64,000 nt of DNA, from positions 62,001 to 126,000 of the forward strand of contig JADIIX010000049.1 of assembly GCA_027604505.1 (NCBI GenBank), written 5' to 3'. Origin of the DNA: Gonapodya sp. JEL0774. Its lineage: Eukaryota. Every line of letters begins with the position of its first letter. The stretch's first letter is position 1. The notes under the pieces are model-generated. The model was not told the origin of the DNA. It saw nothing but the letters and a program-made list of their open reading frames with translations, and did not search any database. Both the position numbers and the translations under genes were made by a program. Below are positions 41,584-61,696 of this stretch, one piece after another.

Positions 41584-44500
41584 ATGCCCTCGGATATCAG
41601 AAGCCATTCTTTCCATCGCGTGGTCATCGTCGGTCTGGGCATGGTCGGCCTCAAGATGTGCGAGTCGCTCATCTCCATCGACGAACTGGCCGGCGCTTCT
41701 TCCTCGGAGTCATTCCAAATCACCGCTTTCTCGGAAGAACCCAATGCAGCTTACAATCGCATGCTACTCACCTCCTATTTTGAACATGGCTCCGTCGAAG
41801 CGCTGACGATGAAACCTGCCAGCTGGTTTGTGGGAAAGGGCATTAAAGTGGTCAAAAGGAGAGTCACAAAGATTGATAGAGCAAGGAAGGTGGTCACTGA
41901 CACTGCTGGAGCGGAAACAGAAGTATGTGTGGAGGAGCGGTGACTCGATGACGCAAATCTCTCACCACTCGCATCTAATCGTCCAGTACGATACACTTAT
42001 AATTGCAACCGGATCTAACTCCTTTGTCCCTCCCATCAAAAATGTTGAAGCCCCCGGTGTCTTCGTCTACCGAACCATCGAGGACCTTGACAACATGATT
42101 GCCTACGCCAAATCCTGCAAGCAAGCGGCTGTTCTTGGCGGAGGTTGGCTCATTGAATATTCACAAAAACTGAATCTCGTTTTGTTATAACCCGAGAACA
42201 TCTACCGATAGGCCTTCTCGGTCTTGAAGCCGCCGCCGCCCTGATGCACCTCAATCTCCAAACTACCGTCGTTGAGCGAAATCCGCACGCGCTTGCCCGC
42301 CAACTTGATGCCGAAGGTGCTAGCGTGATGATGCAAGAGCTTGACCGATTAGGACTCAACGTGGCAGTGCGCAAGGACACCAAACAGATTCTGACAAACG
42401 CAGAGGGACGCGTAAGAGGACTTGAGTTCGTGCACAAGCAGGGAACTCACAGCGGAGACGATGTTTTAGAATGTCAGATGGTTGTGGTGAGCGTCGGTAT
42501 CGCATCGAGGGATGAGTTGAGCAAGGAGTGCGGGTTGGAGGTATGTTAGCAACACATGATGACAGCACTCAGCGAATCGGGAGATCTCATGCCACGAAAC
42601 TCCGACATATCCAATAGACTCATGCAAGGGGTGGTACCGTTACAGATGACGAGCTCCGCACTTCGGACCCCTCCATCTTCGCCGTCGGAGAGGCTGTTTC
42701 TCATCGGGGAATTGTATACGGGCTTGGTGAGTAATACTGGCGTTTGTGTCCATACCATCAAAATCTTACTACAATCTCATGCAACATCCTCTTCTTCCAG
42801 TTCAACCTGGCTATGAAATGGCCCAAGTGGTTGCATCTGTGCTTGCAAAGGAACGTCACATGCGCTGCCACGCTGGGTCCGCCCTCTCGGCACCGGCCAC
42901 CAAGCGATTCTTGGGGAGTGACATGTCTACAAAACTCAAACTCGCGGGTGTGCACGTGGCGAGCTTCGGAGACTACTTTGCGGACAGGGACGGTTACAAG
43001 GGGGTGCCCGCGGCGGATGTCGTAACGGCGGTAGCCAAGGATCCGTTCGGTAAGCCTTGAATGGCAATCGATTTTGGGCGTTGGATGGGGAGAGTGGTTT
43101 TCTTACGGTCATGTTCTTCGCACAGGGTGCTCCTACAAAAAGCTCCTCTTCTCCAAGGATGGCAAACAGTTGTACGGTGGAATCGTACGTTTTTCTCTCT
43201 AAGTAATCTATTGTTGCTCTTCAGTACATCGACTGACTCCGTTATCTGATCGTCCAAAGCTCGTGGGCGATGCCACAACGGAGTACACCAAGCTACACAC
43301 TTTGGCTCGCAGTGCAGCACCGCTCAAAGTCTCACCCTCGGAGCTACTAGGTCGCAAGAAGGGTGGTGATACAGAAGAGGAGGATGTGAGGTTTTCTGAT
43401 CCGACCCTGGGGGCCATTTTCTGCCCCTCTCTAACTTCACACATGCAACATGTACACCTCCCAGGATCTCCCCGACGAAGCTCAAATTTGCTCTTGTAAC
43501 AACGTCACCAAGAAAGCTCTCGTTGAGGCTGTTAAGGCCGGTAACAAGACCCTCCCCGCACTCAAATCCTGCACGCAGGCCGGTTTGGGCTGCGGCGGAT
43601 GTGTTCCCGCGGTGACATCGATCATGAACGCGGAGATAAAGAAAATGGGAGGAACAGTGAAAAACTCTTTATGCGAGCACTTTGACTTTTCGAGGAAGGA
43701 GGTTGGTCTTGTTGTGCACAAAATATTGACGTGGTCTGATCAATGGTTCTGGTACGTTTCAGCTATTCGAGATCGTTAAAATAACAAAAACGAAGACATT
43801 TTGGGACCTTTTGAAGACTCATGGCCGAGGTAACGGTTGTGAGGTCAGTCAATTCTCAAGTGTTCGTTTATGAACTTGCTCGTGCTCACTCTATTGTTCT
43901 CGGCCTGACAAGGTCTGCAAACCAGCCGTCGCCTCAATTCTCGCCTCTCTTCACAACGAAAATGTCATTGCTAAGGCGCACATGCCGCTACAAGACACCA
44001 ACGATAGATTCCTCGCCAACATTCAGCGAGGTGGTTCGTTTTCGGTTGTGCCTAGGATCGCCGGGGGCGAGATCACTCCGGAGGGTCTCATTGCTATCGG
44101 GCAGGTTGCCAAAGAGTTTGGACTCTACACCAAAATAACTGGTGGACAGAGGATCGGTGGGTTGTCAACGGGGAGGGCTTCCGTGTTTTGCGGAAACCTG
44201 ACCACTTCCGGTTCTTCAAGACATGTTTGGTGCGCAAAAGGAGGACCTCCCGACAATCTGGGAAAAACTCATTGCAGCTGGCTTCGAATCTGGCCACGCG
44301 TACGGAAAATCCCTGCGTACCGTCAAATCATGTGTAGGCTCCTCGTGGTGTCGGTATGGTATGAGGGACTCTGCTCGTTTTGCGATAGAGGTGGAGAACC
44401 GATATAAGGGAGTTCGGTCACCTCACAAGCTAAAGGGCGGTGTGAGTGGGTGTGTGCGAGAGTGTGCTGAGGCTCAAAGCAAGGACTTCGGCCTTATTGC

Positions 44501-45740
44501 TACGGAGAAGGGATGGAATGTGTAGGTTATCAGATGCTTCCGTTGCCTCCATGAAAGTGGTTTTCTGAATGTACTCCACTATTTCATTTTATTTGTGCAG
44601 CTACGTAGGCGGCAACGGCGGATCCACACCGAAACACGCTCTCCTTCTGGCATCGGAAGTGCCCGAAGAACTCGTTATCAAATATCTCGATCGGTACCTC
44701 ATGTACTATATTGCTACAGCCGACAAGCTCACCCGGACTGCGCGGTGGATCGAGAAGCTAGAAGGGGGAATTAAGCACTTGCAAGATGTCGTGATTCACG
44801 ACAGCCTGGGGATTGCAGTGGAGCTGGAGGAGCAGATGGCGCACCTCGTCAGCACATACAAAGAGTGAGTCGTACTTTGAGGGGAACCGAAGGAAGCGCA
44901 GAGCATTATGTTTGCTCACTGATCGGCCGTGACATCTTCCAGCGAATGGGCGGAAGTCGTTAACAACCCGGAACTTCGAAGGCAGTTTAAGCAATTTGTG
45001 AACTCGGAAGAGACGCAGGAGAGCATCGTCATGCTCAAGAAGCGTGGTCAGATCGAGCCGGCACCGTGGCCCAAGAATGGAACCGGTGCGGGACCGTCAA
45101 AGGAAGACACGGAGGCGCTCATCCGTGAGAGTGGTGACCAATTGGAATGGGTGGATGTCGGTAAGGTGGTGAGTTCCGTGACTCACTGAGACCAAACTAA
45201 GTTTGCACCTTATGAGCACGTCGGCTTGATTGTAGGCCGATTTCGTTGACGATACAGGTCGCACGGTGAAGTACGGTGACACTCAACTCGCAGTATTCCG
45301 GACATTGTCCGGCGACGGATCCATTCAGTGGTATGCTTCTCAAAATGTGAGTTTCGTGAATATGTGAAGATCTATTCAAGGACTATTGTGACACAAGCAC
45401 AATCGACTCGTAGATGTGTCCCCACAAACGGTCCCTCGTTTTGTCCCAGGGTCTCCTCGGCGACGCCAATGGTGTTCCCAAGGTTGCTTGTCCCTTCCAC
45501 AAAAAGACATTCGCACTCACTACTGGCGAAGGTATCGACGATCCCAGCTTCTCGATCAGCACCTTCGAAGTTCGCATTGCGGGCGGGGACAGGATCGAAG
45601 TGAAGCTACCCAGCATCAAAACCCTGGATCGGGCATTAGGTACGAGTGCATGGAAAGTTGGCAAAGAGAGACGGCGAGCGAAAAAGATTGAGGGAGGGTG
45701 CGGTGGAGCATGCGGAGGAGGGGAGGAGCTAGCGTGGTGA
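41584..45740 (+). CDS. niiA: Assimilatory NAD(P)H nitrite reductase (NirB-type with fused Rieske NirD-like domain), multi-exon
   Basis: FAD site VVIVGLGMVG, AYNR, IIATGS, VLGGGLLGLEAA, MSTKLKL, 2Fe-2S motifs ICSCNNV..CGGC and GCEVCKP, LQDTNDRFLANIQR, siroheme/4Fe-4S motifs KSCVGSSWCRYG and GCVRECAEAQ, Rieske CPHK..CPFHKK. Stop TGA at 45738-45740. Confidence 0.97.
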
Positions 45741-46126
45741 AAGAACTCTCGTTCGACTGGTCGTCCACATTTAAAATATCTAGAGGATTTGTATCCCGCT
45801 GCATTACATAATGATCATGTATACTACTAGAAAAGTTTTATTGCTGAATAATCACAACTTTGAATCTTTCATTGCCTGCTCAATAACACGAAGACAGAGC
45901 TGACAATTTACACTTTCCTCTCACCAATATCTGCATCGATCATAGTTCTACGAACTCTGATTTACGTCAGGTTGGGTTGTTCTTGTCACACGTCGCGCTT
46001 CCCCAGTGTTGTGACACCAGTTTTCGACTCAACCTTACAAATTTGGATCTTTCTGAGCATACTCAGTACTGAGCACAATTTCAGTGTCTTAGAGGGCGCT
46101 CAAACTCGAATCACCGAAGCTGCGTA

Positions 46127-47987
46127 ATGTCCCAAATCACAGAACTATCGCTTCAGAATCCGCTTCTTTCCGTGCACCAATTGGAGTCGACACCGAGCAC
46201 TCGCGATGGACTCTCTGAAGGTGGGTTATTCCCGCCAGGTTGTCTCAGAATGAAAAATGCGTTGTCGGATCCCATCCAACAACCATATCCCCTTTGGCGA
46301 TACTGATTTCAACTCCGCGCGTGACTTTTCACGCTCTCTGACAACCGAATGACACTCAACGGTAGATATGGAGGAGGACCTGCGCCTTTTTGGGTCGGAG
46401 CTGGTCCAGTCCGTCGGGATTCTGCTGCAGTTGTTGGTTCTATTCCTTTGCAACGGTGGTTTGTTCATATATTGGTTTCTCACACGTCAACCTTCCGATT
46501 TGGATTGTGCGAAGGCCTCAGACTGCTGTTGCGATAGCCTTAGTGCTGTTTCAGCGTTTCTTTTCTGTCTCGTCTTTTCGACAATATGGTATTCGGGTAC
46601 GCTTTCTGTTGAGTTCAGTGAAAACATATTCCTCGTGCTCCAACACGCTCTACACTCTTCTGCTCATTAGGACGTTGTTCTTGGCTCCATATCTCTTGCC
46701 TCAAAAGTCTCAGAACATCCCCGAAAACTTCAAGACATGATTGCTACTTTCGATTACGCCGTTAAACGTCACCGTCGACGATTCGCCGAGCCCCTCGAGG
46801 CATTCTCGGCTCAATTTTTTGAATTGCGAAGTTCGCTGTTGGCGGGAGAGATGCACGTGCTGAGGAGACTTGGTTTCAACGTCCATGTGGAGCACCCGTA
46901 CTCATTGCTAATAAACTACTTGAAAGCTCTGGAGCTGGACGGAAACCAAGAAATGTGCCAAAAATCTTGGAATTTCGTCAACGACATGTGAGCCGCCCGG
47001 CATATGATGTTGAACGGTTTCGTTTCGAACCAAACCCCCAAACCGCAGGCTTCGCACCCGTCTTCCAGTTCTCCTCCCACCCACCGTACTCGCCGTCTCG
47101 GCCATTCATCTTGCTGCCCTTCACCTATCTATCCCTCTCCCAACCTCTTGGCTTGCGGTGTTCGAAGCAGACCCGGCAGATGTGTACATTGCGTGTGCGG
47201 TTGTCGAACAGGGATATGCCAGAGTCAAGGCTCGGAAAGTGAAGAAGTCGTGGAAGAAGGATATGCCCGTCGCGTTAAGGGAGGTTGAGGCGTGGGTTGC
47301 AAAAGTGGAGGAGGGAGAAAGGAATGGGGGTGTGACTGTAGAGGAGGAGAAGGTGGATGTGGACCCTGGAGGGGATGGTTCCGGAGATAGAGAGGAAAAC
47401 GATAATAAGGACATTGTGATCAGTGCCTCAAATGGGAACGGAAACGGTGAGAACCACCCTGCTTCGGAGCCCCGTGTTGGCTTGACAAACGGCACTGAGG
47501 CCAGCAAAGGGTCCATCCACCCACTACCACCCAAACCTGACGGCGGTGGCAGCGGGAGTGCTAAAGTGGGCGTGGTAACGGTCGGGAGTGAGGATTCAAA
47601 GTTTAGGGATGTGGACCGTAAAGTGCGCGGGTCGCGTACCGAGTCACGAAGAAGTGAAAGCAGGAGTCGGAGCAGAAGCCGGAGTCGGAGCAGAAGTAGA
47701 GACAGGTACAAGAGGAGAAGGAGGTGAGTTCTATCAGAAGCTGTTAGTGGTATTGCGATTCAAACCGTCGCCATCTCAGGGACTCTCGTTCGCGTTCCCG
47801 TTCCCGGTCACCCTCGCGTTCCCCATCCCGCCGGGACCGCGATCGGCGAGATCGTTACCGGGACGGTGACGATCGTCGACGAAGAGGGAAGAGTAGGAAT
47901 AGATCGAGAGATCGGAGTAAGGATAGAAGAGTAGGTGGTGGAGGGAGTAGTGGTGGAAGTAGGACTGCCGATAGGTATCGGCCGTAA
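46127..47987 (+). CDS. Cyclin L (cyclin box + C-terminal RS domain), multi-exon
   Basis: TPSTRDGL..E..LRLFGSEL, LPQTAVAIALVLFQRFF, LASKVSE, EMHVLRRLGFNVHVEHPY, WNFVND, and an Arg/Ser-rich tail. Stop TAA at 47985-47987. Confidence 0.9.
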
Positions 47988-48170
47988 TCGAGGTGTACAG
48001 GTTGTAACTATGGAGTCGGGTGTCCAGTGTCCCCGCAGCGGAACAAGCATAGAATCGGGTCCGTGATGGTGCTTGTGCGATCTTTTTCTTTTATGGTACA
48101 CATAATAATGCAACCGAGGCGAGCGAGAACAGGCGATGTCTGTTCCTCATAAACTTCCACACACGACTCC

Positions 48171-50078
48171 TCATAGCTTCACCACTTGCTCTTGCTGATA
48201 CCCCATCTTCTTCAGAACTCCGCCCAACGGCCCGGGGGAATCGTCGGGGGCGCGGGGACCTGCCAGGTGCGCCACCATGCTGGATAGGCAGGGAGAAGGA
48301 CGAAATCGCGTGAGGAAGAAGGGTTTCACAGGGACGAGAAGGATGGATTACAGGGCGGGGGGAACAATCGACTGATTCAGTGCGACGTACCGTTCCGGCC
48401 CACATACAAGCACCACACCATTTTTGCCTGTACCTGGTGGTGGTAGCCCAGCCTTCTTCACCATCGCCTCGTCCACTCTGCCTACCAAACCGCGCCACTG
48501 TGCCTTGCCGGCATCATCCACCGTACTGTCCACCGTGTATGTGACTCTGAACCTATTGGGATACATGGCTGCCAGCGAGTCGAGTTCGTTTTTGTAGAGA
48601 ATTGATTCGGGGGAGCGGGATGCGTACAGGAGTGTGACTTTGGGTTGGACGTTGTATAGGGAGGAAGTCGGAGGAGAGGTTGACAAGAGATGAGGGAGGA
48701 GTTGGATGAGCGGTGTGATGCCAGTGCCGGCGGCAATCTGGAAGAGGAATCGGCGAGGAACAGTGAGGTGGTGCGTAGCGAGTGGGGTGAGTTGTGTTGA
48801 GGACAAATTAGTCCGCCCGTCAAATTAGTGCGCCCGTCTCAGCTTCAGTGGTCTCAAAATCCCTCTCGCCCGCACTGAGTCGTGTATCCAATACTCACAA
48901 ATCCAATCTCTTTCTGACTCCCAACTTCCCACCCTACGAACAGCCCCCTCATGTCGACCTTGGCTCCCACTTTCCTCCCAACCAGCCACGGTGTCACACC
49001 TCCTTCGTCATACCTTTTGACGACCAAGGCAAATTCGGTCGGTGTGATGAAGAGCGGGGTGTAGAAGCGGAGTAGTTGCGCAGACGGCTCGCGGAGGTGG
49101 AGGTGGATCAACGCGAGGGGGGGAAGGTCACGAGGAGAAGGCTGCAGGAAGGGGTGGGTGGGTGAAGGAGTGGAGGGCCTGGATGGGGTTATTGGGGACA
49201 TGGAAGAGCAGTGAGGTAGGTCCTGTTGCTCTCGGGTGGTTGAGCGTGGAAAGGGAATTGCGTTCGTTCCTCTCTGTGTTTCACGGACTCTCTCACACCC
49301 ACCTGGAACTTTCTTGACTACCCGTCACTGACGGAAACGCTGTTGGTGCGAGACCCCCCACGAGGGTCTTTGCTGTTGCGCTCTTTTCCTTTTCGGCAAG
49401 GAGGTCCGCCTCCCTCGAGACGGGGATCTCTCTCCTAAACTTGAGTTTGTATACATGTGGAGCGATAAGTTGCTTTTCGATCAACTCAAAGGCCGTGAAT
49501 TTGCGTGTGTCGAATACAGGTGGTGGTTCGTAGACCGTCAAGTAGTGATGTACTTGGTACGCGAGGAGCGCTGCAGATGCTATGAGGCCAATAACAAGTG
49601 CCGGGGTCGAAGACTTGTCTATGGTCGGAAATGTATGTCGGGCTTGGGGTGGTGCAAAATTTGACGGTGGTGGCAGTGAGAAGGAATTGTAATCGTGGTT
49701 ACCGTTCTGGCGTGGAAAAGAAAACGGTGGGAGCGGCGACGGGGGGTCAGTCCGGTGCAGACTCAGTGGTCCCACAAGCGGGGGAAGGTGCGCAGCCTGT
49801 TCGCTCCGGGAAGGTCGCGGTGGAGAAGATGTCGGGGAATCGTGTTCGTTGGGGGTATGATGTGGACCGGACAAGGACGAAAAAGAACGCGAAGAATACA
49901 ACCATCGCGGATGCATTTGTTGCAAAGTCCACGCAGGATGTGTCGATCGCTTCTCTCGCCCTCCTTGTAGCGGTGTCCGAGGGCCAACCACGATATTCCC
50001 ACTTGCAAATCCTCTCGCTGAAGATATCGAGTCCGTTCCTCGGAAAATTCCCCGTCTAATCCTTGAAACTGCTGCCAT
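48171..50078 (-). CDS. NADH-cytochrome b5 reductase-like flavoprotein (MCR1/CYC2-like) with basic presequence and TM anchor
   Basis: Arg/Ser-rich N-terminus, TM segment ALVIGLIASAALLAY, FTAFELIEK, RFYTP, VKRYDEGGVT, IAAGTGITPLIQ, TLLYASR, VLVCGP. Last exon MVAHLAGPRAPDDSPGPLGGVLKKMGYQQEQVVKL-stop. Confidence 0.88.
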
Positions 50079-50227
50079 CACGACGGTGTTTCGATGCTTG
50101 ATAGGCGATGATCCATCGAGGTGAAGAGACACTCGAAGTGTCTAAACGGGTGGTGGCACATGCGTTCGTTGCCCAGACAGGACCAACGGGCAAACACTGC
50201 ATATTATTACACATTGTGAATCTGTGC

Positions 50228-52376
50228 ATGGCCTACTTATCGGCCAAGCCAGCAATCCCGGTTGTGAAGTCCGGTGCTTCCTTAGTTGGTGACCAGCAAG
50301 CCAACGAGAAGCAGTATAATATTGAGTTCGCATGCAAGGCGCGACAAATTTCATGTATACAATAGAGGAAATTGTCGAGGCAGCATCTGGGACGCCCCAT
50401 TCCTCCCAGATCCTCTATACAACGTGCTTCATCGTTTTGAACCCAAGCCGGACAATTCAAGAATAATATATTTACCCCGCAACCCACATATATGCCAGCC
50501 ACACAGCCGCGCGACTCGAATTTGAGGATCACATTCGCTGGTCGGGTAAGTGAGAGACAGGAGTACGTGTCTCCATCATATTCTCAATGCATGTTTTGGC
50601 CGGAGAGAGCGCCGTAGGTTGACTTGTTCGTGTCTGGTCTTCGAGTCGGATCTTCAGCGAAGCGATGTACGTCCCCGCCGAAGCGTCGACCTAAGAATAC
50701 TTGCTCGAACTACTCGTGTGTATTTTCCAGGACCGACATCAATGTTGCCGGAGGGACATGCACAGTTGTGCTGCTGGACCCCAACTCGGGTTTTGCCAAG
50801 GGAGCAATCAAGTTCCTGCAGGATTACCTTCAACCAAAAACGCTACTGTGTACTCGTTGGCGGAGCTTATCACAGTGAGGAAAGTTGAACTGAGCACCGA
50901 CGTCCATCTCGATGAGCTTGGCGTGAAGCTGCGGAATCACTTTGTGAAAATGAATTCATTGGAAGACTATGACGGCATTGGCAGTCTCATTGAGAGTGCC
51001 TGGACGGCAGAAGAAGTGGGCCCGTCCGTCGTCCGCCCCAAAGAGTTTGAAAACATGGGGAAGCTTCACACTCTGAAGACGACTTTGAGCACACCTTTGA
51101 GCACGACTTTGAGCACATCTCCGCTGCTGGTTCCCATATTTGCTTGTTACAAACACATTACAAGAGCGGGTAGTCATGAGTGCCTTCCTCGAGATGTTCT
51201 TGGCACTGGCGTGGTTTCAGCTCTGATGGGACAGAGATTTGACTCCCCGTTGTGGTTGTTGTATCCTGAGGACGATGATTTTGTTGCTTCGTCAGAATCT
51301 CGCTCTTCGGACTTCGTCCTGGTCTCGTTCCTACCCAAAGACAGTCTTATCGAGGATGTGGTTGATTTACGAGATGACAGTGCAATGCCTTCCGACTGGG
51401 CGCACATCAAAGTAGGCTGCTGCGAACGTTGTGAGACTATTGCAATAAGGTTGGTTGTCTTTAGTTTCTGGAGGTTGTTGTGGAGCTAACGATGTACCTT
51501 AAAAGCTACACCAAACTCCAGAAGAGACAGAAGAAAGAGAGTATGACAACAGCCTCACCGATATGGTCTTCGAGTCCAATACCTCGCTCTCAAGGGTTCC
51601 ATCGAGAAGTCGAGACCCAGGCTCTCCAAGTCCCGCCGAAATCGCGCCAGCAGCCCCAACCACCTTGAAGTTGCTTGAGACAGCATCTCCCCTCACTAGC
51701 GAACTAAAGAGCACCATTAACGCAGCGTACGAAGTATACAAGGCAAAATTTGGAAAGAAAGCACGTGATGAGGCAGATGAGGAAAACAGTCCGGACACCA
51801 AGGAAGACTTTACAATTATGCGGAGGAACTATAGCGGAGATAAACTAGCAAACGATGGCTCTGGACTGAGAAGGAACGAAGTCATCGTATTGGAGACAGC
51901 AATGGACATGTCTGAGAGTACCCCGCCCATGCCTATCACTGCTAAGAACGTCGTGACGTTGCTGCACAGCAAAGGCGCTTTTATAACGATCGCTTTATGA
52001 AGATCTCGCAAGTCGACCTTGCTAAGGATTTCTTCCACACTACTGGTGGCCAAGATATTCATGATATAGTACGCCAATTGTTGATGTCGTTGAAAGACAA
52101 GGAGTGGTTTACCAAGGCAAACAAGGACGGAGAAAGATCGCCATACACGCCACTTCAGAAATTCACAAATCGCCTCAACGCCAGAAGGGGTAGAAACCCT
52201 GAGTGAAGACGTGGAGTATGTAGTCAGAATAAGGTGAACATGTGCAAGCTCAGTATCAAAAGGTATTATGTATGTCAAATAGTGGATTGCAGAGGCTGAA
52301 TGGAGCTAAACTATCCTTCTCCACGGGAGTGCTGAAGGAATTGCAGCACATCATTGAACATTCACATCGGTCCTGA
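50228..52376 (+). CDS. Hypothetical protein, multi-exon; both ends uncertain
   Basis: Consecutive + strand open segments (50701-51489, 51563-52000, 51997-52206) bounded by plausible splice sites. No family recognised. Confidence 0.5.
51078..51117 (+). repeat. 12-bp coding tandem repeat, about 3 units
   Basis: ACTTTGAGCACA CCTTTGAGCACG ACTTTGAGCACA, encoding TLST-PLST-TLST. Confidence 0.75.
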
Positions 52377-53258
52377 CGTCCGAAACCATTTCTCCGAGGT
52401 CCATGAGTGCACTCCGCATGTTGCCGGAAGCCTGCCAACCTTTTGAGTGCAACCAAGCGACCGGCTGTCCTGCTTAGGTACGCAAATTTAGCAATTTGCG
52501 TTCTAAAGATAATTGAGCCAGCGCGGTACCACTGCCGGCTCATGTCCTCTCCATTTCTGAACGGAACGTGCACCTGTCCATTTCTCCGCAACCGTTTTGT
52601 CGCAACTCCAATTATTCATTCTAAACTATATCTCCGCCCTTGTGAACCCACACAGCGTCCCGAAACAGATTTGATCTCTCCCCAGGTCTTGCGTGTGCGA
52701 CGCTGTCATCGCACCAACTTGGAGGCCGAGCTGGGAATGTCAGGGTAAATACTTGGCCGTTTGGGACAGAGAAATATTCCATATTGTAACTGAGGAAATC
52801 GCAATTACGAACGTGGAGATTACTTTGTTCGAGGGAAACATTGTTTTCCAGAGAAAGTATGTTTGCTGAATGTTGCCCGACAAATGCAAATAATATTGAA
52901 ATGAGAGCCACATTCCATATGAAGATATCTGGCGCATGCATCCTTGAAGGATATGAAGACACAAGTGTGCGATTTTGTGAGTTGTGTCGCAATCGATGTT
53001 TCAATAAAGCACGGGGTTTCGCCGACAGGGTTTGGCCGACTGTCCAGAGGACGTTGGTTCCACCGACGGGGAACGGGACAGACACACAACCACGCAACAT
53101 CCCCACTTCTGTGGAAAGCAATTTCACTGCTTGCGGTAAAGTTTACGAAGCATCTGTGTCATATTCGCGAAGGTGTGTGGAGATCCGCTGGTTTGTGGCT
53201 CCTAATCTGTACCTTACAGTCGGCCTTCGGCAGTCAGGCAGCCGACCCTTAGTCTTGA

Positions 53259-55471
<2,213 letters not shown>

Positions 55472-55829
55472 ATGTGTCTGTGAATGATGGGTTATGTCTC
55501 CCCATCGCAGGACATATTGAGGACCAATCTTTGCTCAACCTCTGGTGGAGACGATACATCCCCACCTCATAGTAACTGACTTAAATGAATTCCAATATTA
55601 CAAATTGAATTTGAATAAAATCGTTATCTATTGTATCTATATCAAAATTTTTGCACCGGTGCGTGAACCATCAGCTCTATTTAAGATGTGATGTCGAGGG
55701 TGAAGGTTCGAACCCCAAAGTAGTAGGCCGACAAGGAGCGAGTTTTCGTCTCACTCGCCAGTGTATACATCTGCCTCACTACAGGCATCTGGAAGCGTCA
55801 GGAAATCAGACGGACATCACCTGTACACA

Positions 55830-57092
55830 TCAGGTCGGTGCGTTCTTCCCGAAATCCTTTGTCACCTCTGGCTCCAAGGCATCTGCAGAGGAATCTCCCA
55901 CACCACTTTCCACTCCAATCACACCCACACTCGTGTCCTCCTCTCGGTACTTCTCCGAGATTTGCATGGTCCCTCTTCCACTTCGTACCCACTCGTACCA
56001 AAAGTAGAACAAAAACGTCCCAGTCTGGGCAATGGTCATGGAGAAGAAGTTGAGAAACGCAAGAGAATCCAGAGGAGGTGGGCGAAAGACCACGGATATA
56101 GCATTGAAGAGGCCACCAGCGCCGTCTTTGATCGCCGTGTCACGGAAAACCTCGTATAAGAATCAGCAAAAGGAGTCACTGGCAGTACACACTCACCGAT
56201 AAAGGAAAAGATAAGCGATATGCCTATCACGCGCTTCAACCCTGAAATAGCAGGAGGATCCAGTGAGGTGGCTCTAAAAGTCGTAGTGCCAATCCGGGTC
56301 GCCATCCACTCACTCAAAAACTCCCAGTACTGCGGTAAGAATCCTATCATAGCAAAGACAATAGGGATAGTGCCTAAGGCGTTCACCGCAGTATCAACGT
56401 TGTTTTCACGGGCGACCTTCAGGTCGTGAGCAGGGATCAGATTGATGTAATGAGGTGGAAGAACGAGAAAACACGCTACCGCGACTTACTTTTACTCCAA
56501 AGTACACCGCCAGCTCCATCAAAAGTCCGCCGACAAGGACCGCGATAAACACGCCAAAACTAGCTCGCAAGGACCACCTGGAGGGTACTGTTTGTCAAGG
56601 TCCAGTACAAAAGAGGCTGACCTCTTCATTCTCACTTCCTGCCGTAGTAGAAGCACTGGGAAATCGCCACAGAATTAAAGAAATAGAAGAACTGTGGTTG
56701 GACGATGAGCATGGTTGCGAGACCCATCGCCGCACAGTACCCTCCTAAGGGGGCAAAGCATGGGCTTTCTCGATCAGTGCACGAGCGGCGGCCGGCAGTG
56801 AACGGGAGTTTGAGAGTGTTGATATCGAAAACGATCTTTGGACTAACTCACGCCCACAAAAGCAGCATCCACACGGAGAGGCCATCAACGGATTTAGCAC
56901 GATAATTTTTCACGACTGGTACGACGAAGTGTGTAACATTCCGGTGTGTGGTGTTGAGCGATCCGTTGAACTAACTTGCTCACTTTGAGGAACGAGCTGG
57001 AACGACCAGCACACAAATCCGAGGGCAGCAAAAACTTGCTCCAATGCAGGGTAGTAAGACGGGACATCGGATGGTGGAGTTAAAGTGCTCAT
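55830..57092 (-). CDS. PQ-loop repeat membrane protein, multi-exon
   Basis: Two PQ loops (CWSFQLVPQ..KNYRAKSVDGLS; IGFLPQYWE..VIGIS) and several TM segments. Confidence 0.88.
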
Positions 57093-57213
57093 GAAGAAGA
57101 AATCAGCTCGATGATGGAATCATTCTGTCAGCCGCGACTCTTCACCACTTCTGTGGCCTCGGCCCCTGTGTCGCTCATTCCGACGACTTCAGCCATATGA
57201 TTGATACTCCCAA

Positions 57214-58964
57214 ATGGTGTCCTCCACAAATTCAGCACCATCACCAGTAGACGTTTCCACCATTTCGTCCCTCGCCAATCGCGCCTTGCAGTCCAACGAT
57301 GCTCAGGATTTCGCTGCTGCCGAAGCAGAAAGCACCAGAATTCTGCTCGCTTCTTCCCTCAACAAATTAGAAAAGCAAATCAAGGACCCTGATGTAAAGC
57401 CTGAGCGATTAGCAGCGGCGATTGCTTTCATTTCACAGGTGAGTGCGTGTGGGGTGGGTGGTACGTAAGGAATAGCTTCCGAATATCCCACGACCATGAG
57501 TCGAGCCTCCAGCCCCTGCGAAGTATTAGAATTCTTTCGCCTGGTCTTACGATTGATATCTGGCTTATTCACCTCGTTACAGGCTACACATGCGTCTGCT
57601 CGGATGCAACCCGAACATGTTTCGCGCTATTCTTCCCTGTTAATTGCAGCCATCCATCGGTATCCGGATCATCCACGACTCGTAGATGCTGCAGCTGGTG
57701 AGTCCAAGTTGTGGACTCAGCATTCCGGACCGGACAGGGTTGTTTGTGAAGTAGATGCTTGATGCAATCTCGAGATTGGTAAACCGGTCCGTGTCCAACC
57801 ACCTCCTTTCCCCGACAGCGTCTCTCTCCTCTCTCCTTTTCCTCTCCCCTTCGCTTGCCACGCCCGAACTCACCGCGACCCTCACCCAACTTCTCGAAAC
57901 TCACGCATCCGACCCTCATGCCTCACTTCACCTCTCCATGGCCCTCAATGCCGCCTCCTCCTCTTCCTCTTCACTCGCGTCGGTGTCCGACCAAACCGCA
58001 GCAACCTCAAATTCGACGACGACGACCATAACACCCCGGATAGACGTCGTCGCCCGTGCCCTCGATTCCATCGAATCCCTCCTTCGTGGTGAGAACAACT
58101 CAATCTCACTCGAACAAGACGAGCTCGCTCAACGTGTCGCAGAGGCCGAGTCGGTGCTGGTGGATTCTCGGAACCGAGACGTCGTGATGAAACAGTACCG
58201 AACTCGGGTCTTCAACGTGTACTTGGACATATTCACAGCGCTAGGGTGGGGGCCGAAGAGAGAAGGCGCCAAGGGGGACAAAAGCGAAGAGAATGCGACG
58301 TCAATGATACCAGAGGTTCCGATGTCTCAGAAGAAGCCAGTCACCGGGGGAGACGTCGCTCACCATCTGGTAGCTGCCGCGAATACCAACACCACCACGA
58401 CAGTGAATCCCGAACACGCCCCCGCTGATGCGTCAGCCACACCCGCCATCGGTGACACTGTCACCGACGACGATTGGGATCCTTCCACTGCTGTCCGACT
58501 CGACCCGTTCTTGTTACGAGCGTACGAAGGTAACATCTGCTCGTTCTCCTCACTGTTTTACACACCTCTCACTCAAATCACCGTACGCTGCACTCACCCC
58601 TCGCCTTTAGACTTTTCCAACCTCTTCCACTGCTCGAACCCCGCTTGCCTCCGCGTCGCCCGGCACAGTTTGGAAGAGTTCAAATCGTGTGGTGGGTGTG
58701 GTGTGGTGTTCTACTGTGGGAAAGAATGTGAGTACGCTGTAGAGGAGAGCCAGAAAGTGCCCAATGAACTGACATGAAGCGCTGACGTGCGGACATCCTC
58801 TGGACCGACATCGGGGTTCAACAAAGGCCAAAAAGGTGAGATGATATGGAGTGGTGCACGTGTTTGAGACATCCCAAACGAGTGGTAACACGTTTAACGC
58901 TACGTTTTGTCTATATTCAACAGCCGACTGGAAAGAACATAAACCGGTGTGCAAGAAACGATGA
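57214..58964 (+). CDS. Protein with C-terminal MYND zinc finger
   Basis: CSNPAC..CGGCGVVFYCGKE-C-QKADWKEHKPVC, assembled through a 9-nt micro-exon. Stop TGA at 58962-58964. Confidence 0.85.
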
Positions 58965-59209
58965 GCTCCCAGGAACGACCGAGTGGCATCCGTAATTTGA
59001 ACGGACCACCCATTTGCGCATCGTTCAACACTAATATGACTTTGTTATGTACTTTATCGAATACAGTGATGCATAGCTCTTGATTTGCAATTACCCAGCC
59101 CTCCCGGAATGTGAGAAATATGAGAACATGTGTACACGACGAACCACCAGCGAATTACTCCACTCTCCCAGCGCATCTAGGATCTATCTAGGATGTACGA
59201 AATTGGCTT

Positions 59210-61696
59210 TCACAAGATGTACCCGATCGCGAATTTGTCCTTCATCGCCTTCGCAGCGGACCCGTGAATGGCGTGGAAGTCCTCCGACGCATCCTGTCCA
59301 GCGACGATCATGATGGATTTCAGGCCTGGAAGGATGACGACAGAGGTGTTCAGTCGTTGAGGGGCGGGGACACTTTGGATCCACCAAAGAACCAAACACT
59401 GGCAAAACACTCACCACCAGGATGTCGCTTCAGAAACTTCGTGCAATCCAACACCATCCCATCGATCACAATCCAGCAGTCTGTTTCGGACTTGTGCGAC
59501 GCCACGTCGGCCATAGTCATGGGGTTCAGACCTTCCTTGCGTTTTGCGGGTGTGTTGACCAGGACGGAAGGTTTGGTCGCAGCGTCGGCTGCGGCTTTGA
59601 GTCGGGGCATCCAGCCGGCTTCTTTAGATTCACCAATGTTGGTTGGGTGCTGCCATATGTAAGTTGAGGTGGTCGGGTTATGGAATAGTTTCACTCGGTA
59701 CCACTGACAAGGTTACAACGAGTGGTTGCCAGTGAGCTCTGAGAACCTACGGCAATTGACATAGCGAGATTGGCAACTCCAACTCACATTATTCGACATC
59801 ATGCCAAGTAAGTTCCACGTTTGATCGCGCGGTTGTGTGTTTTGGCTCGCATCCCAGCATCTGACCAGCACCTCCGCAACCTGAACAGGCGTACCATCTG
59901 TGCTCTGAGTGATTGTTGTGTCCACGAGTACATCTATTTCTGCTTCCCATAAAAACCAGCACCAGAATTTCGACCCATGACGCGGCGCTCCATCATTCGA
60001 CCCGTGGCGCAGCGAAGGTGCGAGAATCCACGTCTGGCCGTCATCCACAGACAACTCCACCCGTATAATCCGCCGTCCGCCACCAGTGTAAGCGTATCCT
60101 TTGACAGGTAACCGTATCGTGAGAGGATTCGGGGCTGATGTTTCGATGGCGACGACTCTGTGGTGTGCAGGTGAGGTGATGACCGAGTTGATGTTACGTT
60201 CGTTGATAATGAATTCGGGTCGGCGCCACCAGTTGACTTTCTTCATCCCCGAACCGTTGGGGTCAGGTGTGAGTGTGGTGGAGAGGGCGACGGCGGCGGA
60301 GGTGACGTTGGGTGGGAGTACGCGGTTGTCTTCGAAGTGATAAGTTGAGTCGGATTCCTGCGGGTTATCACACAAGGTTTTGGGTGAGAGCTTGATACAA
60401 TCAATCGCGAAGTTCCTTTGAGGTACTCACAGAGTCGCTGACGGTGATTTTAGAGAGCCATTTGACCATTCTTCCGCCAATCCAGCCCGGAATGATTACA
60501 CGAAGTGGGTAGCCGTGATCTGGTGGAAGACGCTGTTGGAGCGTCAGTGTCTCATGCACGATCTTATGGGGATGCACAATCAAACAGGGTAGACGTACCT
60601 CTCCATTCATCTCATACGCAAGTAAGATATCTGATGTGTGATCAAGTGCCATCTCTAAAGGTACAGTGGTGCCGTAGTGACCTTTGGGCAGGTTGTCGGA
60701 CCCCGAGAAATTCACGTATCGCGGAACCGCGATCGTGCCATCTTCGCGTACGCCGGACTTTGGACCACCACAAAGGTTCAGAATGTGCGAGAGAGGAACA
60801 CCTGTCCAGACGGCGGTAGAAACAGCTGCAGGGCCCCAGCTTTTCCAAATTATATGCATGCAAGTGTTGAAGAATCATAGCAGGTGACGGTGACAACAGC
60901 GGGAGGACCACACCTGAAGCCTTGTGAGTTTTTTGTGACATTTTGTTCATGCCTTCGGTTACCCGCGCATGTCAAAGTGACTTGGAAGGTTGCTCTGGGC
61001 ATGCGAGCAATCTCATCCATGGAGAACGTACGAGGTTTCCGGACGAGGCTGTGTGTGTGCGAAAAGGAGCAATAAAAGCTGATAAGATCACTCATGTATG
61101 CAGTAAAGTGTGCAAAGAGAATTTACCCGTCCAGCGATACATTGAAGTCTGCCCATTCAAGATTGGGTACCGGGCCATGGTTGCGCACGTAGTGCAAGGA
61201 ATTCGGCGTCAGACCTTTACTCTTCTCGGCAGCAGCCATTAGCGTGGTGATAGGTGCCTGGAGATGGTCAGCACGAAAATTAGATGCACTCTTACCAGAC
61301 GACCCCGTTTCGAACTCACCTCTGAATTGAAAGGATGGCGACCAGTCAAGCGGATCATACTAGGATGTCGAGGAACCCAATTATCCTAGAGGTACAAAGA
61401 AAACATCGAAGATTGTCCGTTTCGAATGGGGGATAGCGACTCACTGGTGTGTCCACATCTTTCGTGTCGACACCGCCTTCCCATTGACCAAATCCCTCTG
61501 GCAGTTCAATGACTTTCTCTCCACCTTTTCCTTGATCACTCTTCTGACTGAGGGATATTGATGAGAGCGTTGACACCAAAGTAACTCCAGCGATCCCAGA
61601 TATTGCACCAAGCGCGGCGGCGACCGCCCACAAAGGTTGCGCCGTCTGAGACGAATCGACCAAGGATAGCGATGCTATGAGCGGGGCAATCGACAT
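59210..61696 (-). CDS. Nitrate reductase-type Moco + cytochrome b5 protein lacking the FAD/NAD(P)H domain, with N-terminal hydrophobic segment
   Basis: TPDNWVPRHPSMIRLTGRHPFNSE, HYVRNHG, Mo-ligand LTCAGNRRHEQN, WGPAAVSTAVW, PDHGYPLRVIIPGWIGGRMVKWL, YHFEDNRVLP, NINSVI, KGYAYTGGGR, WCW, NTQP..WNLLGMM, hinge QHPT..GWM, b5 DCWIV..HPGG..FHAIH..IGYIL-TGA. Confidence 0.9.

What the first reader, a model, noticed from the sequence alone, without database searches (positions are those of the whole stretch)
41584..61696. Candidate split nitrate-reduction system: nitrite reductase + stand-alone b5 reductase + reductase-less NR
Seen: within about 20 kb lie an intact NAD(P)H nitrite reductase, a TM-anchored FAD/NADH b5-reductase-family gene, and the NR that lacks exactly this domain class. 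The last two are on the same strand about 9 kb apart, and both have N-terminal hydrophobic segments. Known: the mARC system uses a membrane-anchored Moco enzyme fed by separate b5 and b5 reductase proteins. Inference: a two-component NADH to FAD to b5 to Moco chain feeding nitrite to the nitrite reductase. The flavin module of the nitrite reductase is an alternative donor. Caveat: the reductase looks MCR1/CYC2-like, so its proximity may be chance.
Basis: inference. Interest (0 to 1): 0.8.

Follow-up and report, generated by a model that had tools for sequence, protein, structure and literature searches.

The report
Chytrid nitrate reductase without its reductase
This Gonapodya (chytrid fungus) contig carries an intact nitrate reductase gene that ends after its cytochrome b5 domain, and the missing flavin module is likely supplied by the nearby nitrite reductase rather than by the b5-reductase-like gene lying between them.

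Summary
The window matches annotated proteins of Gonapodya sp. JEL0774 at 97-100% identity. It holds an NAD(P)H nitrite reductase (41584-45740, +), a membrane-anchored b5-reductase-family gene (48171-50078, -) and a nitrate reductase (59210-61696, -). The nitrate reductase stops three residues after its cytochrome b5 domain, and no FAD/NADH remnant lies downstream.

This is not an artefact. The enzyme belongs to a well-supported chytrid clade (UFBoot 99, SH-aLRT 97; 8 rows). All eight members lack the flavin domain, yet all keep 12 of 12 residues that separate nitrate reductases from sulfite oxidases.

Two clade members (Gaertneriomyces, Geranomyces) are annotated as one polypeptide with the whole nitrite reductase. 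Its flavin module sits where the lost domain used to be.

The neighbouring b5-reductase-like gene gets about 0.12. It looks like a stand-alone fungal b5 reductase with a mitochondrial-type leader, and no G. prolifera counterpart was retrieved. A generic b5 reductase remains a serious rival.

My eight literature searches found no description of this clade or these fusions.

The parts
41584..45740 (+). NAD(P)H nitrite reductase gene (HDU93_007418). It has 15 exons and carries Pyr_redox_2, Rubredoxin_C-like, BFD [2Fe-2S], NIR_SIR_ferr, NIR_SIR and Rieske_2 domains. The stop is TGA at 45738-45740.
   Evidence: Pfam on ORFs and on P0016. Exact exon blocks of P0016. Stop codon. The C-terminus ...ELAW matches the ...KLEW ends of the other chytrid nitrite reductases.
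41584..43701 (+). Flavin/[2Fe-2S] module of the nitrite reductase (residues 1 to about 535: Pyr_redox_2 12-306, Rubredoxin_C-like 354-425, BFD 464-511). This is the proposed electron donor for the nitrate reductase.
   Evidence: Domain positions and exon blocks. In the fused relatives P0004 and P0005 this module starts 64-86 residues after the b5 domain. The donor role is inferred.
45414..45449 (+). Twelve codons (MCPHKRSLVLSQ) that hold the first Cys-x-His pair of the Rieske motif. The public gene model leaves them out, but the DNA encodes them behind a TCGTAG acceptor.
   Evidence: (DNA, frames, comparison with G. prolifera P0017).
48171..50078 (-). b5-reductase-family gene (HDU93_007420, P0040, 409 aa), five exons as annotated. 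NAD_binding_1 is clear and FAD_binding_6 is only weak. The sequence contains RFYTP, GTGITP and CGP stretches; reading these as the family's FAD and NADH motifs is from recall.
   Evidence: Best solved relative is yeast CBR1 (7rom), E 9e-20. Nearest Atlas clusters are stand-alone fungal b5 reductases.
49530..49613 (-). Uncharged 28-residue segment (residues 62-89) of the b5-reductase-like protein, a likely membrane anchor. It follows an Arg-rich N-terminus (MAAVSRIRRGIFRG...).
   Evidence: Membrane and mitochondrial targeting are inferred from sequence only.
59210..61696 (-). Nitrate reductase gene without a flavin domain (HDU93_007425). The corrected model has 9 exons and 633 aa, with Moco, dimerisation and b5 domains, and stops at TGA 59210-59212. 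Exons: 61696-61445, 61385-61320, 61257-61127, 61048-60914, 60839-60599, 60532-60431, 60357-59788, 59703-59413, 59323-59213.
   Evidence: all introns GT..AG. Nitrate-reductase-type signature 12 of 12 columns. Phylogeny.
60914..61048 (-). Exon that the public model P0001 skips. It encodes LVRKPRTF...TLTCAGNRRHEQ...QGFS, including the invariant cysteine aligned with the Mo-ligand position.
   Evidence: (DNA with GTAAAT..CACAG and GTGTGG..AAAAG borders). The cysteine is invariant across nitrate reductases and sulfite oxidases.
61544..61654 (-). Uncharged 37-residue N-terminal segment (residues 15-51) of the nitrate reductase, a likely membrane anchor. It is present only in the two Gonapodya enzymes among the clade members with a full N-terminus.
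   Evidence: It lies in the same exon and frame as the conserved DTKDVDTPDNW motif, and no other in-frame Met precedes that motif.
59213..59517 (-). Cytochrome b5 domain (residues about 562-632, split by one intron) with HPGG and a second His. The protein ends ...AIGYIL.
   Evidence: Net charge is -1 against a mean of -5.4 in 32 full-length nitrate reductases.

Best explanation
The window encodes an intact nitrate reductase that has Moco, dimerisation and cytochrome b5 domains but no flavin domain, and it likely receives NAD(P)H electrons in trans from the FAD/[2Fe-2S] module of the nitrite reductase encoded 13.5 kb away.

**Shown**
- The truncated architecture is real.
- The active-site signature is nitrate-reductase-type.
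- The enzyme belongs to a chytrid clade in which every member lacks the flavin domain.
- Two sister members are annotated as single polypeptides in the order Moco, dimer, b5, linker, Pyr_redox_2, BFD, sirohaem domain, Rieske.

**Inferred**
- In those fusions the only flavin module reduces the b5 haem. One NAD(P)H entry point would then drive nitrate to nitrite and nitrite to ammonium.
- In Gonapodya the same two partners would work as separate proteins.
- The Gonapodya-specific N-terminal hydrophobic segment would tether the nitrate reductase to a membrane with its catalytic part in the cytosol, where the soluble nitrite reductase could reach it.
- The b5-reductase-like gene between them would be a bystander.
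For: 1. **Real truncation.** TGA falls three residues after b5. There is no FAD/NADH remnant. Orthologues in G. prolifera (645 aa) and Cladochytrium (598 aa) end at the same point.
2. **Nitrate-reductase-type enzyme.** 12 of 12 columns that separate 31 full-length nitrate reductases from 5 sulfite oxidases are nitrate-reductase-type in all 8 clade members. In 35 of the 40 columns near-invariant across nitrate reductases and sulfite oxidases, every clade member that is aligned there keeps the consensus residue. The other 5 are one Thr-to-Asn change in Geranomyces and four C-terminal columns where Boothiomyces is gapped (one of them also Cys in three members). The best solved match is P. angusta nitrate reductase 2bih at 1.3e-78, against 1.9e-66 for the best sulfite oxidase.
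3. **One old loss.** The eight rows without a flavin domain form one clade (UFBoot 99, SH-aLRT 97) spanning Gonapodya, Cladochytrium, Boothiomyces and Spizellomycetales. It is separate from the full-length chytrid nitrate reductases.
4. **Fusion evidence.** P0004 (Gaertneriomyces, 1651 aa) and P0005 (Geranomyces, 1675 aa) join this truncated nitrate reductase to a whole nitrite reductase. They are sister to Gonapodya plus Cladochytrium (97/86). In a small tree, their nitrite reductase halves are also nearest to the Gonapodya, Cladochytrium and Zopfochytrium nitrite reductases.
5. **Precedents.**
   - The Creolimax/Sphaeroforma chimera replaces the nitrate reductase flavin domain with Pyr_redox_2 plus BFD from nitrite reductase. 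Nitrate assimilation works in S. arctica (PMC6400420: abstract, section 17 and further passages). It arose independently (P0065 sits elsewhere in the tree, 100/99).
6. **Linkage.** The two genes share a scaffold in both Gonapodya species. They are 7 locus tags apart here and 17 accession numbers apart in G. prolifera.
7. **Weak supporting sign.** The b5 domains of the clade are much less acidic than those of full-length nitrate reductases. Seven of 8 have net charge of -1 or higher, against 4 of 32. This fits a change of redox partner, but the clade counts as one evolutionary event.
Against: - No binding or activity test was possible, because complex prediction never ran.
- The two fusions are automatic gene models that I could not check against DNA or RNA. 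Their linkers (86 and 64 aa) are no more alike than shuffled sequence (score 28 against 31.4 +/- 5.9; 1444 of 2000 shuffles reach it). Another protein in the same set, P0066, is annotated as MFS transporter plus nitrate reductase, so merged models of neighbouring genes are possible.
- The fusions are nested among unfused members, so the unfused state looks ancestral and its original donor need not have been nitrite reductase.
- Three unfused members end in peroxisome-type tails (SKL, SKL, ANL), whereas the chytrid nitrite reductases seen here end in ...KLEW or ...ELAW.
- The Gonapodya nitrate reductase has a membrane-anchor-like N-terminus, which would suit a membrane-bound b5 reductase.
- The linkage is loose, with unrelated genes in between and convergent orientation. 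PMC6400420 Table A scores G. prolifera as not clustered.
- G. prolifera has a second, full-length nitrate reductase (P0099). The truncated enzyme therefore need not be the assimilatory one.
- The nitrite reductase tree contained no other eukaryotic nitrite reductases, so its agreement with the nitrate reductase tree is weak evidence.
Confidence: 0.4

Rival explanations
1. A generic b5 reductase or P450 reductase encoded elsewhere in the genome reduces the b5 domain. The nitrate reductase would be membrane-anchored beside membrane-bound reductases, as with b5-fused desaturases and the mARC system. The nitrite reductase would only take over the nitrite.
For: - Established knowledge (recalled): b5 domains fused to desaturases and hydroxylases are reduced in trans by microsomal b5 reductase.
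- The Gonapodya nitrate reductase has a 37-residue uncharged N-terminal segment, conserved in both species.
- The unfused state looks ancestral in the clade.
- Some members carry peroxisome-type tails that the nitrite reductases lack.
Against: - The clade's b5 domains have lost most of the net negative charge that full-length nitrate reductase b5 domains carry.
- The only re-fusions seen in the clade are to nitrite reductase, never to an FNR-type reductase.
- No such reductase was identified here, because no whole genome is held.
Confidence: 0.25
2. The b5-reductase-like protein encoded 9 kb away (HDU93_007420) is the dedicated NADH-FAD donor, and it forms a two-component membrane-bound nitrate reductase like mARC with b5 reductase.
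For: - It shares a strand with the nitrate reductase, 9.1 kb away.
- Both proteins have anchor-like uncharged segments.
- It belongs to the very domain class the nitrate reductase has lost: NAD_binding_1 at 2e-21, and 26-36% identity to nitrate reductase NADH domains.
Against: - Its best solved relative is yeast CBR1, at only E 9e-20.
- The nearest Atlas clusters are stand-alone fungal b5 reductases of 298-374 aa from Ascomycota, Basidiomycota and Zoopagomycota, and none is a nitrate reductase.
- It has an Arg-rich leader plus a membrane segment. This suggests mitochondrial sorting (inference), whereas the nitrate reductase N-terminus has no basic leader.
- The homologue search returned only the protein itself among 1328 candidates, so no G. 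prolifera counterpart of 278-2000 aa was found.
- Four of the other five genes in the interval gave no Pfam family above cut-off and one is a sulfatase.
- No 12-mer or longer is shared between any pair of the three upstream regions.
Confidence: 0.12
3. The truncated enzyme is not the assimilatory nitrate reductase. The full-length paralogue would do that job. The Moco-b5 protein would have another role, for instance working on nitrite or NO, acting with a different partner in another compartment, or being a decaying duplicate.
For: - G. prolifera has a second, five-domain nitrate reductase on another scaffold (P0099).
- Clade members carry varied targeting signals: an N-terminal anchor, or SKL/ANL tails.
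Against: - The truncated enzyme keeps 12 of 12 nitrate reductase signature columns, while the full-length paralogue keeps 7 of 12 and has CDGNRR in place of CAGNRR.
- The architecture is kept across four chytrid orders, with 80% identity between the two Gonapodya species over 488 columns. This argues against decay.
- The fusions to nitrite reductase tie it to nitrate assimilation.
Confidence: 0.13

Closest known systems
Canonical eukaryotic assimilatory nitrate reductase (EUKNR; NiaD/NIA; solved Moco fragment 2bih)
   Same: It has the same Moco, dimerisation and b5 domains in the same order. It has the invariant cysteine and all 12 residues that separate nitrate reductases from sulfite oxidases. 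It nests inside the nitrate reductase tree.
   Different: It has no FAD_binding_6 or NAD_binding_1 domain and the protein stops after b5. It has an extra N-terminal hydrophobic segment. Its b5 domain is near neutral rather than acidic.
CS-pNR, the chimeric nitrate reductase of Creolimax fragrantissima and Sphaeroforma arctica (PMC6400420)
   Same: A nitrate reductase whose own flavin domain is gone, with a NirB-type Pyr_redox_2 (plus BFD) module from nitrite reductase thought to take its place.
   Different: - CS-pNR carries a duplicated copy of only the first two nitrite reductase domains, on the same chain.
- The chytrid relatives are joined to the entire, apparently single-copy nitrite reductase.
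- In Gonapodya the two are separate genes.
- The origins are independent, since P0065 sits in a different part of the tree.
Bacterial NasC-NasB-NasG assimilatory system (Paracoccus denitrificans)
   Same: A nitrate reductase with no NADH site of its own is fed by the flavin of the NADH nitrite reductase through an iron-sulfur carrier (PMC5424462 introduction). The fungal nitrite reductase is the fused NirB-plus-Rieske homologue.
   Different: NasC is a bis-MGD molybdoenzyme unrelated to the sulfite-oxidase-family Moco domain here. There is no cytochrome b5. This is an analogy, not homology of the nitrate reductase part.
mARC with cytochrome b5 and NADH-b5 reductase
   Same: A membrane-anchored Moco enzyme that depends on outside NADH-to-haem electron supply.
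   Different: mARC has a MOSC-type Moco domain and a separate b5 protein. Here the Moco domain is of the sulfite oxidase/nitrate reductase type and b5 is fused. No evidence ties the neighbouring b5 reductase to it.
Sulfite oxidase
   Same: It shares the Moco and dimerisation fold, and a haem b5 domain occurs in the animal enzymes.
   Different: The domain order is Moco then b5, not b5 then Moco. All 12 discriminating columns are nitrate-reductase-type, including Asn where sulfite oxidases have Tyr.

Membership tests
Eukaryotic nitrate reductase (EUKNR) | Oxidored_molyb domain with the invariant Mo-ligand cysteine | tested here: met
   PF00174 on two exons (7.4e-32 and 5.5e-10). TLTCAGNRRHEQ lies in the exon 61048-60914. 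The cysteine column is invariant.
Eukaryotic nitrate reductase (EUKNR) | Mo-co dimerisation domain | tested here: met
   PF03404, 4.8e-33.
Eukaryotic nitrate reductase (EUKNR) | Cytochrome b5 domain C-terminal to the Moco part | tested here: met
   PF00173 on two exons; 4.4e-21 on P0001. HPGG and the second His are present.
Eukaryotic nitrate reductase (EUKNR) | FAD_binding_6 plus NAD_binding_1 (b5-reductase-type) C-terminal domain | tested here: not met
   No Pfam hit downstream. No tblastn hit outside the separate gene at 48.4-49.2 kb. TGA stop after b5. The same holds in 7 other clade members.
Eukaryotic nitrate reductase (EUKNR) | Nitrate-type rather than sulfite-type active-site residues | tested here: met
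   12 of 12 discriminating alignment columns. The residue roles themselves are recalled from the literature, not tested.
Eukaryotic nitrate reductase (EUKNR) | Placement inside the nitrate reductase clade with sulfite oxidases as outgroup | tested here: met
   The nitrate reductases split from 5 sulfite oxidases at 100/100, and the window row lies inside.
Eukaryotic nitrate reductase (EUKNR) | NAD(P)H-dependent nitrate reduction | not testable with these tools
   This needs an enzyme assay.
NAD(P)H nitrite reductase (NirB/NirD-type, fungal NiiA-like) | Pyr_redox_2, BFD [2Fe-2S], NIR_SIR_ferr, NIR_SIR and a Rieske-like C-terminal domain | tested here: met
   All five are found on P0016 and on the window ORFs. 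The Cys-x-His ... Cys-x-x-His motif is encoded.
NADH-cytochrome b5 reductase family (for the gene at 48171-50078) | FNR-type FAD-binding and NAD-binding domains | tested here: inconclusive
   NAD_binding_1 scores 2e-21 (met). FAD_binding_6 scores only E 0.007, 17.1 bits, below the 21.1-bit cut-off. The RFYTP stretch and the alignment to yeast CBR1 over residues 199-379 cover the C-terminal part of the FAD domain as well.
NADH-cytochrome b5 reductase family (for the gene at 48171-50078) | Orthology to a named yeast member (CBR1, MCR1, CYC2) | not tested
The CYC2/MCR1-like label is a recalled resemblance only.
mARC-type three-component system | MOSC-type Moco protein with separate b5 and b5 reductase proteins | tested here: not met
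   The Moco domain is PF00174/PF03404, not MOSC, and b5 is fused.
Nitrate reductase fused or chimeric with nitrite reductase (CS-pNR type) | Pyr_redox_2 module on the same polypeptide after b5 | tested here: not met
   It is absent in the window protein. It is present in the sister proteins P0004 and P0005 and in Creolimax P0065.

The most novel reading that the evidence does not exclude
A whole chytrid lineage of nitrate reductases gave up its own flavin domain and runs on the flavin module of nitrite reductase. The two are fused into one 1650-residue nitrate-to-ammonium enzyme in Spizellomycetales and split into two partner proteins in Gonapodya. This would be a eukaryotic counterpart of the bacterial NasB/NasG/NasC arrangement, and a second, independent invention of what ichthyosporeans did.
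Probability: 0.35. Interest if true: 0.8.

Novelty: new variant of a known kind. Interest (0 to 1): 0.62.

Why it matters
Textbooks describe the eukaryotic nitrate reductase as a self-contained five-domain enzyme. A conserved fungal clade that lacks the NAD(P)H-FAD domain, yet keeps a full nitrate-type active site, shows that the electron-input module is exchangeable.

If the fusions are real, one flavin site would feed all eight electrons from nitrate to ammonium. That bears on three things:
- how nitrite, which is toxic, is kept from escaping;
- how the composite nitrate reductase first arose by domain fusion;
- how nitrate assimilation genes are scored in genome surveys. PMC6400420 Table A counts the G. 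prolifera gene as an ordinary nitrate reductase, and the paper's main text contains no "Gonapodya" or "chytrid".

The finding also gives a directly testable pair of natural states, split and fused, for studying electron transfer between redox proteins.

Tried and rejected
- **Whole-genome search of the window's organism.** No genome is held. I could not look for other b5 reductases, nitrate transporters or a second nitrate reductase in this strain.
- **Metagenome scan.** I used a profile of the truncated clade (74 loci), then tblastn. The hits were 36-55% identical; 44 of 74 loci showed a FAD/NADH domain in the locus (39 of them together with the b5 domain), 0 of 74 hit the nitrite reductase, and I did not place the loci in a tree. 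This was a dead end.
- **Complex prediction.** I set up the b5 domain against nitrite reductase residues 1-535 with FAD and haem. The job never ran because the queue was full.
- **Sequencing runs.** None was listed, so splice sites and expression could not be checked.
- **Earlier notes on this genome.** There were none.
- **Shared promoter words.** No 12-mer or longer is shared among the three upstream regions. GATA-site density is 2.4-5.6 per kb, against 2.5 per kb for the window. With three short regions this has little power.
- **Linker conservation between the two fusions.** Not above shuffles, so it neither confirms nor refutes the fusions.
- **Convergent substitutions shared by the clade's b5 domains and the Creolimax chimera.** None was found, and the chimera's b5 charge (-4) is not shifted.
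- **Idea that the b5-reductase-like gene is the split-off C-terminus of this nitrate reductase.** Not supported. It scores slightly better against stand-alone b5 reductases than against nitrate reductase flavin domains (74 against 53.5 bits in PDB). Its nearest Atlas clusters are stand-alone reductases. A proper tree was not possible without reference b5 reductases.
- **Idea that the Moco protein is really a sulfite oxidase.** Rejected.
- **Idea that the truncation is a gene-model or assembly artefact.** Rejected.
- **Literature.** Eight searches found no paper on a chytrid nitrate reductase without a flavin domain or on a nitrate reductase-nitrite reductase fusion in fungi. In one search none of the 8 listed papers held "Gaertneriomyces". 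The supplement searches of PMC6400420 covered only part of its 31 files.

Full report
**Source and contents of the window**

The best protein matches are to Gonapodya sp. JEL0774, a monoblepharid chytrid fungus, on a contig of 155,387 bp.
- The nitrite reductase exon I used as query is 100% identical to HDU93_007418 (P0016).
- The b5-reductase-like exon is 99% identical to HDU93_007420 (P0040).
- The nitrate reductase exon is 97% identical to HDU93_007425 (P0001).

No whole genome is held for the window. Pfam on stop-to-stop ORFs shows ordinary housekeeping neighbours: VPS13, an E1-like ThiF protein, RING fingers, an S15 peptidase, Rxt3, CTC1, a sulfatase and BCS1. No nitrate transporter was detected.

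The nitrite reductase runs from 41584 to 45740 on the + strand. It carries Pyr_redox_2, a weak Rubredoxin_C match, BFD, NIR_SIR_ferr, NIR_SIR and Rieske_2.

The b5-reductase-family gene runs from 50078 to 48171 on the - strand. The nitrate reductase runs from 61696 to 59210 on the - strand, with Oxidored_molyb, Mo-co_dimer and Cyt-b5 and nothing after them.

I rebuilt the nitrate reductase gene model. It has nine exons, all with GT..AG borders, and gives 633 residues.

The public model P0001 (588 aa) skips the exon 61048-60914. That exon encodes the TLTCAGNRRHEQ stretch with the invariant cysteine. The DNA has this exon intact, with good splice sites.

The protein ends ...AIGYIL, followed by TGA. 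tblastn with the flavin domains of five full-length nitrate reductases hit only the separate b5-reductase-like gene. Nothing scored better than E 0.19 anywhere else in the window. The truncation is therefore real and leaves no pseudogene remnant.

**A real nitrate-reductase-type enzyme in a clade that all lack the flavin domain**

The word-based homologue search with the dimerisation exon returned 15 proteins. The full HMMER search of 1.84 billion representatives with the G. prolifera orthologue returned 15,720 proteins at E 0.001 or better, of which the best 150 were listed.

I scanned 51 of these with Pfam and 10 more. Of the 51:
- 36 have FAD_binding_6 and/or NAD_binding_1;
- 12 have Moco, dimer and b5 only;
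- 2 have Moco and dimer only;
- 1 (P0065) has Pyr_redox_2 and BFD after b5. One search names it as Creolimax fragrantissima.

For the tree I chose 56 rows:
- the window protein;
- 32 full-length nitrate reductases;
- 15 proteins ending at b5;
- the 2 nitrite reductase fusions;
- the Creolimax chimera;
- 5 sulfite-oxidase-like outgroups.

I left out the shorter fragments and the hits I had not scanned. The alignment was cut to the Moco-to-b5 region, giving 500 columns.

The finished IQ-TREE run (quick versions) gives one clade of eight rows at UFBoot 99 and SH-aLRT 97. No member of it has a flavin domain.
- The window protein joins G. prolifera at 100/99.
- Cladochytrium tenue joins these at 100/99.
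- The two fusions are their sister at 97/86.
- Boothiomyces sp. JEL0866 comes next at 99/80.
- Two unnamed Logan proteins (P0006, P0007) complete the clade.

The full-length chytrid enzymes (Spizellomyces, Phlyctochytrium, Chytriomyces, Irineochytrium) form a separate clade. The other 10 rows that end at b5 are scattered among full-length relatives and may be fragments.

I then took alignment columns where at least 85% of 31 full-length nitrate reductases share one residue and at least 4 of 5 sulfite oxidases share another. There are 12 such columns, and all eight clade members have the nitrate reductase residue at all 12. One of them is an Asn where sulfite oxidases have Tyr. Of the 40 columns near-invariant across nitrate reductases and sulfite oxidases, 35 are kept by every clade member that is aligned there. 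The exceptions are a Thr-to-Asn change in Geranomyces and four C-terminal columns where the Boothiomyces row is gapped, one of which is also Cys in three members.

The closest solved structure is the Pichia angusta nitrate reductase fragment 2bih, at 1.3e-78. The best sulfite oxidase scores 1.9e-66.

**The fusions**

P0004 (Gaertneriomyces sp. JEL0708, 1651 aa) and P0005 (Geranomyces michiganensis, 1675 aa) are annotated as single proteins. Their domain order is Moco, dimer, b5, a linker of 86 or 64 residues, Pyr_redox_2, then a Rubredoxin_C match (P0004 only), BFD, NIR_SIR_ferr, NIR_SIR and Rieske_2.

The nitrite reductase flavin module thus sits exactly where FAD_binding_6 and NAD_binding_1 sit in a normal nitrate reductase.

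In Gonapodya the nitrate reductase stops at the end of b5. The nitrite reductase starts 12 residues before its GxGxxG strand.

A small nitrite reductase tree (17 rows, with prokaryotic NirB as outgroup) places the nitrite reductase halves of the fusions next to the Gonapodya, Zopfochytrium and Cladochytrium enzymes. This mirrors the nitrate reductase tree. No other eukaryotic nitrite reductases were available, so it is weak evidence.

**Precedents in print**

Ocaña-Pallarès et al. 2019 (PMC6400420; I read the abstract, section 17, further passages, and parts of the supplements) describe a chimeric nitrate reductase in Creolimax and Sphaeroforma. It consists of Moco, dimer and b5 plus the first two nitrite reductase domains.
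- The authors state that this architecture is restricted to those two species in their data.
- They show that the pathway works in S. arctica.
- Their Table A lists G. prolifera with two nrt2, two euknr (Gpro_102987, which is P0002, and Gpro_95808) and one NAD(P)H-nir, and no cluster.
- The main text has no occurrence of "Gonapodya" or "chytrid".

**The b5-reductase-like gene**

P0040 (409 aa) has a clear NAD_binding_1 domain at 2e-21. Its FAD_binding_6 match is below threshold (E 0.007).

Its best solved relative is yeast CBR1 (7rom) at only E 9e-20. Maize nitrate reductase flavin fragments follow at 1.6e-13.

The two Atlas look-ups place it nearest to stand-alone fungal NADH-cytochrome b5 reductase clusters of 298-374 aa. 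None is a nitrate reductase.

It begins MAAVSRIRRGIFRG..., followed by a low-complexity stretch and a 28-residue uncharged segment. From general knowledge this looks like a mitochondrial presequence plus a stop-transfer anchor. That reading is inference.

The word-based search found only P0040 itself among 1328 candidates of 278-2000 aa. By contrast, the G. prolifera nitrate and nitrite reductases were found at 69% and 77% identity. A conserved G. prolifera orthologue is therefore not shown. A shorter gene model would have been missed.

- The two Gonapodya nitrate reductases carry a roughly 65-residue N-terminal extension with a 36-37-residue uncharged stretch. It lies in the same exon as the conserved DTKDVDTPDNW motif. 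The clade members with full N-termini (P0005, P0007, P0044) lack it.
- The unfused state looks ancestral in the clade.
- Three unfused members end in SKL, SKL and ANL. From recall these are peroxisomal PTS1-like tails. The chytrid nitrite reductases end ...KLEW or ...ELAW.
- G. prolifera also has a full five-domain nitrate reductase on another scaffold (P0099). That paralogue is the more divergent one, with 7 of 12 signature columns and CDGNRR.

**A further weak sign**

Over 76 aligned b5 columns, the 32 full-length nitrate reductases have a mean net charge of -5.4 (sd 2.8), and 4 of the 32 are at -1 or above.

Seven of the 8 clade members are at -1 or above, and the window protein is at -1. 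The Creolimax chimera is at -4.

b5 reductases are known (recalled) to dock on the acidic face of b5. The loss of charge therefore fits a change of partner. It is one evolutionary event, however, and the ranges overlap.

**Caveats on the fusions**

I could not see their DNA. Their linkers are no more alike than shuffled sequence. P0066 (1592 aa) is annotated as MFS transporter plus nitrate reductase, which shows that merged models, or other fusions, exist in this protein set.

If the fusions are merged models, they still show a truncated nitrate reductase immediately upstream of, and co-oriented with, the nitrite reductase.

**Verdict**

My estimates for the electron donor are:

| Explanation | Confidence |
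|---|---|
| Nitrite reductase flavin/[2Fe-2S] module, acting in trans | 0.40 |
| Generic b5 reductase or P450 reductase encoded elsewhere | 0.25 |
| The neighbouring b5-reductase-like gene | 0.12 |
| The truncated enzyme has a role other than assimilation | 0.13 |

Eight literature searches found no description of the flavin-less chytrid clade or of the fungal fusions. I class this as a new variant of a known kind.

Noticed in passing
window 60914-61048 (-): The public gene model HDU93_007425 (P0001, 588 aa) skips a 135-nt exon that carries the invariant Mo-ligand cysteine motif TLTCAGNRRHEQ. The DNA has the exon with GT..AG borders, so the true product is 633 aa.
   Followed up: yes
window 45414-45449 (+): The public nitrite reductase model (P0016) uses a downstream acceptor and loses 12 codons (MCPHKRSLVLSQ), which include the first Cys-x-His of the Rieske motif. 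G. prolifera P0017 keeps them.
   Followed up: yes
P0006, P0007, P0190, P0044, P0011 (relatives, not in the window): Several b5-ended nitrate reductases finish in peroxisome-type tails: ...RRSKL, ...SSSKL, ...TSSKI and ...QANL (Boothiomyces). Outside the clade, Gigaspora margarita ends ...HKAKM. This suggests that some flavin-less nitrate reductases are sent to peroxisomes, and that Gigasporaceae may have lost the flavin domain independently.
   Followed up: partly
P0099 (G. prolifera KXS18993.1, contig of 758,273 bp): Gonapodya prolifera has a second, full five-domain nitrate reductase. It has CDGNRR in place of CAGNRR and only 7 of 12 nitrate reductase signature residues. It groups with Borealophlyctis and unnamed proteins (97/91).
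   Followed up: partly
P0066 (1592 aa, unnamed source): This protein is annotated as an MFS_1 transporter (residues 79-540) joined to a full nitrate reductase, within the full-length chytrid clade. It is either a transporter-reductase fusion or a merged model of neighbouring genes.
   Followed up: no
window 49296-50141 (-): The 282-nt first intron annotated in the b5-reductase-like gene (49707-49988) is open in frame. The ORF 49296-50141 runs through it, so an unspliced form would add about 94 low-complexity residues between the Arg-rich start and the membrane segment.
   Followed up: no
window 36322-40869 (-): A single 1516-codon open frame with a CTC1 (CST telomere complex) match at its C-terminus (1.4e-25) lies directly upstream of the nitrite reductase.
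   Followed up: no
window 57755-58774 (+) and 46353-47724 (+), 50695-51997 (+), 55801-56485 (-): The ORFs of four annotated genes between the nitrite and nitrate reductases gave no Pfam family above cut-off. The only match was a weak zf-MYND hit (E 0.0017) at 57755-58774. Their functions are unknown.
   Followed up: partly
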